Assembly: GCF_009914755.1 (NCBI RefSeq)
Contig: NC_060936.1
Strand: one strand, 5' to 3'
Length of the DNA stretch: 64,000 bases
Source: the human T2T-CHM13v2.0 reference genome, Homo sapiens
Part shown: piece after piece, positions 2,626 through 5,235 of the stretch
How positions within the stretch are numbered: the first letter of the stretch is position 1
Layout: each line of letters opens with the position of its first letter
Made by a program: the position numbers and the translations under genes
Notes under the pieces: generated by a model
What the model saw: the letters and a program-made list of their open reading frames with translations, nothing else
Databases searched by the model: none
What the model was told of the DNA's origin: nothing

Positions 2626-3705
2626 GGGTCCCCCAGCAGTGCCAGCCCACCGGCGCTGCGCTCGATTTCTCGCCGGGCCTTAGCTGCCTTCCCACGGGGC
2701 AGGGCTCGGGACCTGCAGCCCGCCATGCCTGAGCCTTCCCACCCCCTCTGTGGCCTCCTGTGCGGACGAGCCTCCCCGACGAATGCCGCCCCCTGCTCCA
2801 CGGCGCCCAGTCCCATCGACCACCCAAGAGCTAAGGAATGCGAGCACATGGCGCGGGACTGGCAGGCAGCTCCACCTGCAGCACCGGTGCGTGATCCACT
2901 AGGTGAAGCCAGCTGGGCTCCTGAGTCTGGTGGGCACTTGGAGAACCTTTATGTCTAGCTCAGGGATTGTAAATACACCAATCGGCACTCTGTATCTAGC
3001 TCAAGGTTTGTAAATACACCAGTCAGCACCCTGTGTTTAGCTCAAGGTTTGTGAGTGCACCAATTGACACTCTTTATCTAGCTGCTCTGGTGGGGCCTTG
3101 GAGAATCTGTGTGTGGAAACTCTGTATCTAACTAATCTGATGGGCACGTGGAGAACATTTGTATCTGGCTCAGGGATTGTAAACGCACCAATCAGCACCC
3201 TGACAAAACAGGCCACTCGGCTCTACCAATCAGCAGGATGTGGGTGGGGCCAGATAAGAGAATAAAAGCAGGCTGCCCAAGCCCGCATTGGCAACCAGCT
3301 TGGGTGTCCTTTCAAACTGTTGAAGCTTTGTTGTTTCACTCTTTGCAATAAATCTTGCTACTGCTCACTTTTTATGTCCACGTTGCTTTTATGAGCTGTA
3401 ACTCTCACCGCAAAGGTCTGCAGCTTCATTTTTGAGCCCAGCGAGACTACGAGGCCACGAGGAGGAACGAACGACTCCTGACGCGCTGCCTTAAGAGCTG
3501 CGACACTCACGGCGGAAGTCTGCAGCTTCACTCCTGAGCCAGCAAGACCACGAACCCACCAGAAGGAAAACACTCCGAACGCATCTGAACATCAGAAGGG
3601 AGGGACTCCAGACGCACCACTTTAAGGGCTGTAACACTCACTGCGAGGGTGTGCGGCTTCATTCTTGAAGTCAGTGAGACCAAGAACCCACCAATTCCAG
3701 ACACA
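2626..3705 (+). mobile_element. LTR12 (ERV9) solo LTR, 5'-truncated, inserted in an Alu
   Basis: tgtctagctcagggattgtaaatacaccaatc tandem units, CCAAT boxes, AATAAAAG at ~3261 and a terminal ccaattccagacaca. An Alu 5' end lies to the left (~2574-2625) and the Alu resumes at 3706. About 350 bp of LTR 5' end is missing compared with the copy at 21300. Confidence 0.95.
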
Positions 3706-3728
3706 TGGCCACCATTGTGAAACTCCAT
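3642..3728 (-). CDS. SLC2A14: SLC2A14 (GLUT14) long-isoform N-terminal coding exon, 29 aa MEFHNGGHVSGIGGFLVSLTSRMKPHTLA
   Basis: The translation matches the GLUT14-L N-terminus as I recall it. The exon ends at a phase-0 GCA|GTGAGT donor (intron starts at 3641). An antisense-Alu acceptor TTTTTAATAG|AG lies just upstream (3732-3729). Confidence 0.88.
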
Positions 3729-5235
3729 CTCTATTAAAAATACAAAAAAATTAGCTGGGTGTGCTGGTGCATGCCTGTAGTCCCAGCTACCTGGGAGGCT
3801 GAGGCAGGAGAATGAACCCAGGACACAGAGGTTGCAGTGAGCTGAGATTGTGCCACTGCACTCCCGCCTGGGTGACAGAGTGACTCCATCTTAAAAAAAA
3901 ATAAAAAATAAACCTTGGAATACAGACATAGCTCATTCAATTGATTGACATATAAACTAAATGACAAACATACTGTTTATGGAGAAACCTGTGAGCCACA
4001 TCTTTTGGCTTTGGAAGCCAAAAGCCTAACTTCCTTTTATTTCAGATGAAAACTTATCTCCCTATATCAACCATCTTCCTTTTTTTTCTTTTTTTCTTTT
4101 TTTTTTGAGACGGAGTCTCACTGTTGCCCAGGCTGGGGTGCAGTGGCATGATCTTGGCTCACTGCAACCTCCACCACCCGGGTTCAAGCGATTCTCCCGC
4201 GTCAGCCTCCCGAGTAGCTGGCACTACAGGCATGTGCCACCATGCCTGGCTAATTTTTTGTGTTTTTTAGTAGAGCCAGGGTTTCACTGTGGTGCCCAGG
4301 ATGGTCTTGATCTCCTAACCTCGTGATCTGCACGCCTCGGCCTCACAAAGTGCTGGGATTACAGGTGTCAGCCCCCGCGCCCGGCCACCACATTGTTTTG
4401 ATTACAGCTTACTGCTGAATTTTGAGAGTGCTTTACATTCTCTAGAAACAAATCCTTTGGGATATGTGGTTTGCAAATATCTTCTCTGAATGTAGCCTAT
4501 CTTTTCACCATATACATGGGGCCTTTTGCAGAGCAAAAGCTTTTCATTTTGATAAGCCCAAATTTATCAATTTTTCCTCTTGTGGTTTGAGCTTTTAACG
4601 TCTTTTGTTGTTGTTGTTATTGTTGTTTGAGATGGAGTCTCGCTCTGTCGCCCAGGCTGAGTGCAGTGGTGCAATCTCAGCTCACTGCAACCTCCGCCTC
4701 CCGGATTGAAGCCATTCTCCTGCCTCAGCCTTCCAACTAGCTGGGACTGCAGGTGCGCACCACCATGCCTGGCTAATTTTTTGTATTTTTAGTAGAGACG
4801 GGGTTTCACCATGTTAGCCAGGATGGTCTCGATCTCCGGACCTCATCATCCGCCGGCCTCGGCCTCCCAAAGTGTTGGGATTACAGGCGTGAGCCACCGT
4901 GCCCGGCTGAGCTTTTACTGTTAAGTCTCTTTTACTATAACACAGGCATGCTCACTTGTTTATGTAATGAACGTGGCTGCTTAAATGCTATGACGTTGGA
5001 ACTGAGTAGCTGTAGTGGTGACTGAGCCGCTATGGCCCACAAAGCCTCTATCTGCACAAAAAGAGTCAGCCGACCCAGGCTCTAATCAGATAAGCCTCCA
5101 TGCTCTTAGGGTATTTTCATATGCCTTTCCCTCTATCTGAAACACTCTTTCTTCAGATCTCCTCATGGCCGGCTCTTTATGTCACTCTGGTTTCTGCTCA
5201 AATTTACCGTAAAGAGGCCTTCCCTGACCACACTA

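What the first reader, a model, noticed from the sequence alone, without database searches (positions are those of the whole stretch)
3642..3732. The GLUT14-L N-terminus is encoded across an Alu-LTR12 junction
Seen: the acceptor, ATG and MEFHNGG come from an antisense Alu (3706-3732). VSGIGG...PHTLA and the donor come from the antisense LTR12 3' end (3642-3705). The exon exists only because the LTR landed inside the Alu, so a coding exon was made from two transposons. The same LTR could also drive + strand transcription antisense to this exon.
Basis: partly seen in the sequence, partly recalled or inferred. Interest (0 to 1): 0.7.

Follow-up and report, generated by a model that had tools for sequence, protein, structure and literature searches.

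The report
Alu plus LTR12C coding exon
The alternative first coding exon of the testis glucose-transporter gene SLC2A14 really is stitched from two old mobile elements, an Alu and the end of an ERV9 retrovirus LTR that landed inside it, which is a tidy but ordinary example of how transposons make new exons.

Summary
RefSeq exon 3642-3730 (minus strand) is in 2 of 6 SLC2A14 mRNAs. Its acceptor AG, its ATG and codons 1-7 lie in an antisense Alu (3706-3912). Codon 8 straddles the junction. Codons 9-29 and the donor GT lie in the antisense 3' end of a dispersed repeat at 2623-3705.

That repeat is a real solo LTR of the ERV9/LTR12 family. It is closest to copies that print labels LTR12C, and it lacks about 420-450 nt at its 5' end. 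It splits one Alu, from which 37-39 nt are missing.

The paralogous site in the SLC2A3 duplication unit is empty, so three Alus and then the LTR arrived after the tandem duplication, which print puts at 40 Myr or more. The LTR's decay is comparable to the IRGM LTR12C copy, which is great-ape-specific (about 20 Myr). My estimate is 10-25 Myr, with low precision.

The donor GTGAGT is shared by 20 of 20 related copies, and one chr12 lncRNA model uses the same position. The ATG sits at a decayed Alu CpG.

In both long-form mRNAs the short-form ATG lies 20 nt upstream, in strong context and out of frame. Translation of the long N-terminus is therefore unproven. Plus-strand transcription from the LTR is possible but unsupported. 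This is an ordinary kind of event and a new documented case.

The parts
3642..3730 (-). Alternative SLC2A14 exon (89 nt), the first coding exon of the long form GLUT14-L. The CDS is 3728-3642, 29 codons.
   Evidence: RefSeq NM_153449.4 and NM_001286233.2; sequence; translation
3731..3732 (-). 3' splice site AG, preceded by a T-rich tract, inside the antisense Alu.
   Evidence: The A is shared by 81 of 83 and the G by 80 of 83 other Alu copies of the window.
3726..3728 (-). Annotated GLUT14-L start codon, at a decayed Alu CpG.
   Evidence: At 3727, 24 of 83 Alu copies have T and 56 have C. At 3726, 52 have G and 28 have A. mRNA context is GAATAG ATG G.
3640..3641 (-). 5' splice site GT (GCA|GTGAGT), inside the antisense LTR U5.
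   Evidence: G and T are each shared by 20 of 20 related copies, and the next four bases also by 20 of 20. The last exon base A (3642) is shared by only 2 of 20.
2623..3705 (+). Solo LTR of ERV9 (LTR12 family, LTR12C-like), 1083 nt. It is 5'-truncated by about 420-450 nt and its 3' end is intact (...ACA).
2954..3083 (+). U3 tandem repeats of 41 nt (3.2 copies) with CCAAT and GATA-type motifs.
   Evidence: TRF. The printed GATA motif occurs 4 times at 2989-3170 with 0-2 mismatches. CCAAT is at 2978, 3060, 3188 and 3226.
3261..3292 (+). Core promoter remnant: AATAAAA (3261-3267) and a start-site-like motif (3281-3292) with 2 mismatches to the printed GCCAGCAGTGGC.
   Evidence: motifs taken from PMC11853044 section 5
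3388..3691 (+). Three 71-nt U5 repeat units (3388-3458, 3490-3560, 3621-3691). Each carries a GTGAG donor-like site on the minus strand (G at 3408, 3510, 3641).
2572..2622 (+). 5' piece of the Alu that the LTR splits.
3706..3912 (+). 3' piece of the same Alu with its A-tail. It supplies the acceptor, the ATG and codons 1-7.
1964..2571 (+). Two further Alus (1964-2263 and 2275-2571) of the same post-duplication insertion cluster.
   Evidence: Masked stretches; SRP-like matches; absent from the paralogue
10147..10149 (-). Short-form (GLUT14-S) ATG. In the long-form mRNAs it opens a 25-codon upstream ORF that overlaps the long-form ATG and stops at 3673-3671.
3660..3662 (-). In-frame ATG inside the LTR-derived part (MKPHTLA...), 8 nt past the upstream ORF's stop.

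Best explanation
After the NANOG/SLC2A3 tandem duplication, an A-rich spot upstream of the SLC2A14 copy took up three Alus. An ERV9 provirus then integrated into the third Alu, in the same plus-strand orientation, which is antisense to SLC2A14. What remains is a solo LTR12C-like LTR with an intact 3' end. A deletion removed about 420-450 nt of its 5' end and 37-39 nt of the Alu. When SLC2A14 pre-mRNA runs through this intron, the spliceosome pairs two sites 89 nt apart: the usual antisense-Alu acceptor (T-tract plus AG) and the GTGAGT that every antisense U5 repeat unit of this LTR family carries. Inclusion of the 89-nt exon shifts the short-form frame. An ATG made by CpG decay in the Alu opens a frame that stays open across the junction and through 21 LTR codons, and it joins exon 2 in phase. 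On paper this replaces 6 N-terminal residues by 29 (520 against 497 residues). Shown here: the anatomy, the order of insertions, the family, and the family-wide donor. Inferred: the deletion, the age (10-25 Myr, hominoid), and actual translation of the long form.
For: Exon, splice sites and frame. Repeat limits 2623-3705, with 39 other copies at 85-91% identity. Family: the LTR aligns end to end (84.6% over 1098 columns) to the T2T copy placed by offset from the TNFRSF10B gene end at the locus that PMC11853044 Table 1 lists (in hg38) as LTR12C. It aligns 75-81% to the likewise-placed IRGM LTR12C, and only partly (69-71%, query 279-946) to the ADH1C LTR12 and DHRS2 LTR12D copies. The printed architecture is present: 41-nt U3 repeats, CCAAT and GATA motifs, AATAAAA, and 71-nt U5 units. 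One split Alu. Truncation: 19 of 20 copies share the 14 nt shown upstream of the break (the 20th only the last few), and 5 of 5 sampled keep homology for 420-450 nt. Empty paralogous site at chr12:8007671-8007693, with only about 20 A-rich nt between the flanks. Donor shared by 20 of 20 copies, acceptor by 80-81 of 83 Alus, ATG at a CpG column. The same donor position is used by a chr12 lncRNA model. Age: private-site share is 4.7%, against 6.6% for the IRGM copy and 3.4% for the TNFRSF10B copy, measured on the same panel. The IRGM copy is in human, chimpanzee, gorilla and orangutan but not macaque, baboon or marmoset, about 20 Myr (PMC2644816 passages). The 5' extension of LTR12C is almost only in hominoids (PMC8767690 passages).
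Against: No target-site duplication can be shown, because one junction is a deletion junction. I had no RepeatMasker or Dfam call, so the subfamily rests on 4 print-labelled comparators that I placed in T2T by gene offsets. A divergence clock calibrated on the local paralogues gives an impossible age. The LTR's star branch is 6.7% (2.6% transversions), against 3.95% (1.54%) per branch for the older duplication. LTR12 therefore decays faster or is heterogeneous at source, and the date is soft. Translation is in doubt. The first ATG of NM_153449.4 is the short-form one (AGAGAG ATG G), out of frame and overlapping the long-form ATG, which has T at -3. NM_001286233.2 has 19 upstream ATGs. The exon is absent from the 'select' transcript. 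No protein or expression data were seen, and the two primary GLUT14 papers are not held.
Confidence: 0.85

Rival explanations
1. The exon is real at the RNA level but is non-productive exonisation. Its inclusion mainly breaks the short-form frame. Ribosomes start at the upstream short-form ATG and make a 25-residue peptide. GLUT14-L is made little or not at all, or translation starts at the in-frame ATG at 3662-3660 and gives a form with only 7 new residues.
For: In both long-form mRNAs the short-form ATG is upstream, in a context with purine at -3 and G at +4, out of frame, and its ORF overlaps the long-form ATG, which has T at -3. A further in-frame ATG with A at -3 lies 8 nt after the upstream ORF's stop. 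The exon is in 2 of 6 RefSeq mRNAs and not in the 'select' one. No paper in the library holds the N-terminal peptide string.
Against: RefSeq curates the long CDS in two BestRefSeq records. The founding paper's title, seen only in reference lists, speaks of alternative splice forms in testis. Leaky scanning over 20 nt is common (established knowledge, not tested here). Supplements and proteome tables could not be read.
Confidence: 0.4
2. The LTR did not insert into one Alu. Two separate Alus, or a rearrangement such as the local inversion, brought an Alu piece and an LTR end together.
For: One junction is a deletion junction without a target-site duplication. The whole block from window -231 to 4019 is inverted relative to its paralogue.
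Against: The two Alu pieces are on the same strand and in order, and they leave a gap of 37-39 nt in 57 of 61 comparisons with other Alus. The LTR's 3' end is the family's own end in 19 of 20 copies. The paralogue lacks all three Alus and the LTR at one clean A-rich site.
Confidence: 0.05
3. The LTR's main role here is regulatory and the exon is a by-product. It would act as a testis or germline enhancer, or as a plus-strand promoter whose transcript runs antisense through the exon.
For: The LTR is on the plus strand and keeps AATAAAA, 4 CCAAT in U3 and 4 GATA-type sites. RefSeq lists an MPRA silencer fragment at 3013-3213 and an hESC H3K27ac enhancer at 3902-4401. LTR12C is the commonest LTR source of chimeric transcripts in testis (PMC8767690 passage).
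Against: There is no plus-strand RefSeq transcript between RPS20P29 and the MYL9 pseudogene. The start-site motif has 2 mismatches, one of them in its inverted repeat. About 420-450 nt of the 5' extension, which print links to promoter use, are missing. Nothing here measures activity.
Confidence: 0.1

Closest known systems
Alu exonisation through the antisense-Alu 3' splice site
   Same: A T-rich tract plus AG of an antisense Alu is used as acceptor. The site is shared by 80-81 of 83 Alus of the window. The exon is alternative and primate-specific.
   Different: Here the Alu gives only the acceptor, the ATG and 7 codons. The donor and 21 codons come from another element nested in it. The classic papers are recalled and were not read here. 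An abstract in the listing (PMC7275561) states that Alus provide donor or acceptor sites.
LTR12C-derived splice site in CHM (PMC11853044, section 10, read)
   Same: An LTR12C inside a gene supplies a splice site that changes the protein isoform.
   Different: In CHM it is an acceptor, said to have been acquired after fixation, and it truncates the protein. Here it is a donor on the antisense strand that the whole family carries (20 of 20 copies), and it adds an N-terminus. The same review says antisense ERV9 is not known in any splicing event. That statement traces to a survey limited to the internal parts of full-length ERVs (PMC1794541 section 12).
IRGM remodelled by an ERV9 LTR plus an Alu (PMC2644816, passages)
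   Same: The same LTR family, an Alu and a new ATG together rebuild the 5' end of a primate gene in the ape lineage.
   Different: At IRGM the LTR is in sense and acts as promoter and first exon. Here it is antisense and acts as coding sequence and donor.
Predicted exonisation by antisense LTR12C (PMC1794541, section 11)
   Same: That simulation predicted strong splice sites in antisense solitary LTR12C. The SLC2A14 exon and the LOC105369917 exon use one.
   Different: The paper found no mRNA support for antisense HERV9 sites within its restricted survey. Here two annotated transcripts do use one.

Membership tests
ERV9 / LTR12 long terminal repeat | Many dispersed genomic copies with shared, sharp ends | tested here: met
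   8883 first-look candidates. The 39 other scored copies are 85-91% identical and match window 2623-2628 to 3693-3706 (36 of 39 end at 3705 or 3706). The 3' end ...ACA is shared by 19 of 20 copies.
ERV9 / LTR12 long terminal repeat | U3 tandem repeats of about 41 nt with CCAAT and GATA motifs (PMC11853044 section 5) | tested here: met
   41-nt period, 3.2 copies, at 2954-3083. TCTGTATCTAGCT occurs 4 times at 2989-3170 with 0-2 mismatches; in the whole window there are 8 matches against 1.41 expected. There are 4 CCAAT in U3. The printed GTGGGGA motif has no exact match.
ERV9 / LTR12 long terminal repeat | AATAAAA about 30 nt before a GCCAGCAGTGGC start-site motif | tested here: inconclusive
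   AATAAAA is at 3261. The motif at 3281-3292 has 2 mismatches, a level that is not rarer than chance in the window (8 found, 6.36 expected).
ERV9 / LTR12 long terminal repeat | U5 repeats of about 72 nt | tested here: met
   Three 71-nt units at 3388-3458, 3490-3560 and 3621-3691, 61-76% identical to the reference unit.
LTR12C subfamily | Closest to copies that print labels LTR12C, and carries the 5' extension of LTR12C/D/E | tested here: met
   84.6% end to end to the TNFRSF10B copy and 75-81% to the IRGM copy. The first 278 nt match only those two, not the ADH1C LTR12 or DHRS2 LTR12D copies. This rests on only 4 comparators, placed in T2T by gene offsets. A Dfam/RepeatMasker call was not available.
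LTR12C subfamily | Full length of about 1.3-1.7 kb (Table 1 of PMC11853044) | tested here: not met
   The LTR is 1083 nt. Relatives continue for 420-450 nt beyond the break. It is a truncated member, not a different family.
Solo LTR (no provirus) | No internal retroviral sequence on either side | tested here: met
   Both flanks are pieces of one Alu.
Alu (7SL-derived SINE) | Similarity to 7SL/SRP RNA, dimeric about 300 nt with an A-tail, very many copies | tested here: met
   Sub-threshold Metazoa_SRP match at 3754-3892, plus strand (47.9 bits, gathering score 70, E 1.6e-10). 83 Alu copies of the window align to 3706-3918. The A-tail ends near 3912. The Alu subfamily was not determined.
Transposon-derived coding exon | Annotated splice sites and CDS lie inside the repeats | tested here: met
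Transposon-derived coding exon | The protein product is actually made | not testable with these tools
   No proteome or ribosome-profiling data were available. The primary papers are not held and the peptide string is in no held paper.

The most novel reading that the evidence does not exclude
The GTGAGT on the antisense strand of each U5 repeat unit of LTR12 would be a family-wide, ready-made splice donor. The 21-nt motif occurs at 7579 sites at up to 2 mismatches. Genes would capture it repeatedly whenever an acceptor lies just beyond the LTR's 3' end. That runs contrary to the printed view that antisense ERV9 takes no part in splicing. In SLC2A14 it would have given apes a new N-terminus on a testis transporter. 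The same germline-active LTR could also tune exon inclusion or expression through plus-strand transcription.
Probability: 0.2. Interest if true: 0.5.

Novelty: new member of a known kind. Interest (0 to 1): 0.3.

Why it matters
The case dates part of a human protein isoform. SLC2A14 itself is shared with Old World monkeys (print), but the long N-terminus can be no older than an LTR that probably arrived in apes. It is also a clean textbook case of nested transposons jointly making a coding exon. And it is a concrete counter-example to the statement in a 2025 review that antisense ERV9/LTR12 is not known to contribute splice sites. The upstream-ORF finding tells anyone who studies GLUT14-L to check that the protein exists before giving it a function.

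Tried and rejected
Looked for a paralogue of the exon in SLC2A3. The gene bodies are paralogous (88-93%) only up to about window -23500. The true paralogue of this spot is an inverted block 57 kb upstream of SLC2A3. The unmasked BLAST runs were swamped by Alu hits. Only the repeat-masked run was usable.

Tried an absolute clock from the local paralogues and rejected it. It makes the LTR older than the duplication that it post-dates.

The comparison with the 20 nearest copies alone suggested that the window copy was unusually old: 51 private sites against 15-36. I rejected that reading as selection bias once three copies not chosen for similarity gave 3.4-6.6% on the same panel.

I first took copy L016 (chr8:23.45 Mb) for the TNFRSF10B LTR12C. 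Gene coordinates showed it is about 104 kb away, so I fetched the right place.

A systematic count of annotated exons that use the antisense donor failed. The pattern search lists only the first 100 of 7579 matches, and exon tables exist for chr12 only. I could check just the 7 other chr12 copies that happened to list.

TRF did not find the U5 repeats. The repeat finder did.

Not in print, as far as searched: SLC2A14 with LTR12 (0 papers), SLC2A14 with Alu and exonization (0 papers), the peptide string (0 papers). Supplementary tables of transposon-exon catalogues are closed and may well list this exon.

Papers and what I saw of them. PMC11853044: sections 3 and 5 whole, plus passages. PMC8767690, PMC2644816, PMC10110494, PMC3995011, PMC12999487, PMC7462842 and PMC8069026: passages only. 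PMC1794541: section 12 whole, plus passages. Wu and Freeze 2002 and Amir Shaghaghi 2016: seen only as reference-list entries. PMC5698836: not held.

Left out: a protein search for the long N-terminus in other primates. No protein search, structure prediction or Atlas call was made. The Alu subfamily was not named, because that needs reference sequence from memory.
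Full report
THE EXON. On the minus strand the sequence reads ...tttttttgtatttttaatag|AGATGGAG...CTCGCA|gtgagtgt.... The exon is window 3730 to 3642 and is 89 nt long. The acceptor AG is at 3732-3731 and the donor GT at 3641-3640. The ATG is at 3728-3726, and 29 codons (MEFHNGGHVSGIGGFLVSLTSRMKPHTLA) end in phase 0.

RefSeq has this exon in NM_153449.4 and NM_001286233.2, which is 2 of the 6 SLC2A14 mRNAs. The 'select' transcript NM_001286234.2 skips it and starts translation at 10149 (MDNRQN). The next exon lies 30.6 kb away, at window -27009 to -26917, and continues ...VTPALIF in frame. Summing the annotated coding parts gives 520 residues for the long form and 497 for the short form.

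THE TWO REPEATS. I searched the reference genome with window 2560-3960. The search found 8883 first-look candidates and scored 40: the window itself and 39 other places, all 85-91% identical. The 39 start at window 2623-2628 and end at 3693-3706, 36 of them at 3705 or 3706. The 3' terminus ...GACACA at 3705 is shared by 19 of 20 fetched copies.

Above 3705 the sequence is Alu. Eighty-three other Alu copies of the window align over 3706-3740. Rfam gives a sub-threshold 7SL/SRP match on the plus strand at 3754-3892 (47.9 bits, gathering score 70). So the repeat boundary lies between the second and third base of codon 8.

ONE ALU, SPLIT. The 51 nt before the repeat (2572-2622) and the 220 nt after it (3706-3925) both align to the same Alu copy, same strand and in order, in 61 Alus of the window. 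The gap between them is 37-39 nt in 57 of the 61. The LTR-like repeat is therefore nested in a single plus-strand Alu that has lost 37-39 nt at the far junction.

At that junction the repeat itself is cut short. Nineteen of 20 relatives share the 14 nt shown upstream of the point aligned to 2623 (the 20th only the last few). Five of five sampled relatives stay alike for a further 420-450 nt before identity drops to background. One deletion that took the LTR's 5' part, the adjoining Alu bases and one copy of the target-site duplication explains this. It could have happened to a solo LTR, or it could have removed the rest of a provirus. I cannot tell which.

FAMILY. I named the element from print and from the LTR alone. 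The review PMC11853044 (sections 3 and 5 read whole) describes LTR12 as follows: U3 repeats of about 41 nt carrying CCAAT and the GATA site TCTGTATCTAGCT, an AATAAAA about 30 nt before a GCCAGCAGTGGC start site, U5 repeats of 72 nt, and an extra 5' extension of about 600 nt in LTR12C/D/E.

- The window element has a 41-nt array at 2954-3083.
- It has four GATA-type sites at 2989-3170 and four CCAAT in U3.
- AATAAAA is at 3261.
- A 2-mismatch version of the start motif is at 3281-3292. On its own that is no better than chance.
- Three 71-nt U5 units lie at 3388-3691.

Table 1 of the review gives hg38 positions of named loci. I placed four of them in T2T by their offsets from the named genes and fetched them. 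The window LTR aligns end to end to the TNFRSF10B LTR12C copy (84.6% over 1098 columns) and at 75-81% to the IRGM LTR12C copy. It aligns only over query 279-946, at 69-71%, to the ADH1C LTR12 and DHRS2 LTR12D copies. It is thus an ERV9 solo LTR, LTR12C-like, that keeps about 280 nt of the 5' extension. A Dfam/RepeatMasker call would settle the subfamily, and I did not have one.

AGE. The upper bound comes from the paralogue. Unique flanks of the insertion cluster have one other match in the genome, at chr12:8007572-8009680, inverted, next to RPS20P28, which is the twin of RPS20P29 in the window. There the bases matching window 1948 and 3920 are only 21 nt apart and separated by an A-rich run. 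So the three Alus (1964-2263, 2275-2571 and the split one) and the LTR are all missing from the paralogue. They entered after the tandem duplication.

[quoted passage not shown] In my alignment the two units differ at 7.9% of 6203 unique aligned sites.

A clock built on that figure fails. The LTR's star-phylogeny branch is 6.7% (2.6% transversions), against 3.95% (1.54%) per branch for the older duplication. LTR12 is CpG-rich (45 CpG, observed/expected 0.55) and heterogeneous at source.

A like-for-like comparison is better. Against the same panel of 20 copies, the share of positions that at most 1 panel copy shares is as follows:

- Window LTR: 4.7% (51 of 1083).
- TNFRSF10B copy: 3.4%.
- Second LTR12C in the window: 6.5%.
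- IRGM copy: 6.6%.

The IRGM insertion is present in human, chimpanzee, gorilla and orangutan. It is absent in macaque, baboon and marmoset, and is put at about 20 Myr (PMC2644816 passages). The 5' extension of LTR12C is reported almost only from hominoids (PMC8767690 passages). My estimate is therefore 10-25 Myr, inside the ape lineage, with low precision. No ape or monkey genome could be consulted here.

WHERE THE SIGNALS CAME FROM. The donor is a family trait. G and T at 3641-3640 and the next four bases are each shared by 20 of 20 copies. The last exon base (A at 3642) is shared by only 2 of 20. Each of the three U5 units carries such a GTGAG on the minus strand, and the first one met by the polymerase is the one used. 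The 21-nt motif that contains it occurs 7579 times in the genome at up to 2 mismatches, and 0 times in the reversed control.

The acceptor AG is shared by 81 and 80 of 83 Alus. The ATG sits on a CpG column: at 3727, 56 Alus have C and 24 have T. So the start codon is an ordinary CpG transition.

USE OF THE SAME DONOR ELSEWHERE. Searches happened to list 7 other chr12 copies. Two lie antisense inside lncRNA models.

- In LOC105369917 (XR_007082936.1, a Gnomon model) an internal exon, 95361916-95362016, ends exactly at the base that corresponds to window 3642. The mapping uses the ungapped 376-for-376 match. I mapped this by coordinates only and did not fetch the sequence.
- LOC105369719 merely ends inside its copy.

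The second LTR12C of the window (21298-22677) is also antisense to SLC2A14, and no RefSeq exon touches it.

Print predicted such antisense LTR12C exons by simulation but found none. However, that mRNA survey covered only the internal parts of full-length elements (PMC1794541 sections 11 and 12). The 2025 review repeats that antisense ERV9 is not known in splicing. The SLC2A14 exon is a counter-example.

IS THE LONG FORM TRANSLATED? Joining the annotated exons as they stand gives the following.

- In NM_153449.4 the first ATG is the short-form one (context AGAGAG ATG G). It lies 20 nt before the long-form ATG (GAATAG ATG G) and in another frame.
- That first ATG opens a 25-codon ORF, which overlaps the long-form start and stops at 3673-3671.
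- NM_001286233.2 has 19 ATGs before the long-form start.
- An in-frame ATG at 3662-3660 (context TCAAGA ATG A) lies 8 nt past that stop. It would give a form with only 7 new residues.

The long form thus needs leaky scanning. This is inference from sequence. I saw no expression, ribosome or proteome data, the two primary GLUT14 papers are not held, and no held paper contains the peptide string. The 29 residues include a moderately hydrophobic patch that is too short for a membrane span.

PLUS-STRAND TRANSCRIPTION. The LTR is in the right orientation and keeps part of its promoter. Against activity, its start motif is degraded, much of the 5' extension is gone, and RefSeq has no plus-strand transcript there. 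RefSeq does list an MPRA silencer fragment at 3013-3213 and an hESC enhancer at 3902-4401.

VERDICT. The finding is correct and well observed. It is an ordinary mechanism (transposon exonisation) in a neat nested form, and apparently undescribed in searchable text. It carries two useful riders: the antisense LTR12 donor is a family-wide site that is used at least twice on chr12, and the long-form start codon sits behind a strong out-of-frame ATG.

Noticed in passing
window 21298-22677 (+): A second, full-length LTR12C-like solo LTR in the same SLC2A14 intron, also antisense to the gene. It is 82.3% identical to the TNFRSF10B LTR12C copy over 1458 columns. It lies under RefSeq hESC H3K27ac/H3K4me1 enhancer features at 21112-22282, and no RefSeq exon touches it.
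   Followed up: partly
chr12:95361916-95362016 (outside the window; not fetched): An internal exon of lncRNA model LOC105369917 ends at the base that corresponds to window 3642 in another antisense LTR12 copy, so the same U5 donor is used there. LOC105369719 has its terminal exon end inside yet another antisense copy (chr12:30437625).
   Followed up: partly
window -231 to 4019 against chr12:8007572-8009680 (L008): The block holding the exon is inverted relative to its paralogue upstream of SLC2A3, while the blocks on both sides (window -8723 to -5391 and 5118 to 8715) are collinear. Which copy inverted, and whether that happened before or after the insertions, is unknown. If it was this copy, the inversion set the elements' orientation to the gene.
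   Followed up: no
window 721-1036 and chr12:8008415-8008727: RPS20P29 and RPS20P28 are twins in the two duplication units, so this RPS20 retrocopy predates the tandem duplication.
   Followed up: no
window 11110-11328 and 11445-11549 (-): Two SLC2A14 5'UTR exons lie antisense inside the MYL9 processed pseudogene LOC100130582 (11090-11936, +). These are exons made from the opposite strand of a retrocopy.
   Followed up: no
window 31186-31386 (-): A third alternative first exon (NM_001286237.2) encodes yet another N-terminus (coding 31186-31317). It lies about 1.2 kb from the start of NANOGP1 on the other strand and under an annotated K562 repressive promoter-type fragment. It overlaps no masked repeat.
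   Followed up: no
window 2154-2213, 2457-2516, 3815-3874, 4125-4184; 3752-3803, 4201-4252: Sub-threshold Rfam matches to mir-3135 and mir-1268 all fall inside Alus. These are families built on Alu sequence and are not evidence of miRNA genes here.
   Followed up: no
L015 (chr1:108700681-108701929) and L022 (chr8:103610515-103611697): In one search these two LTR copies matched on past the LTR end into the Alu part of the query (to query 1312 and 1254). Yet their first 10 flanking bases differ from the window's. Probably an Alu lies close by and the pieces were chained.
   Followed up: no
window 3423-3622: 19 of the LTR's 51 private positions fall in these 200 nt of U5, the repeat-unit region, and only 1 falls in the 64 exon bases (3642-3705). 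This may reflect misalignment of the repeat units or local exchange between them. It is too few sites to call constraint on the exon.
   Followed up: no
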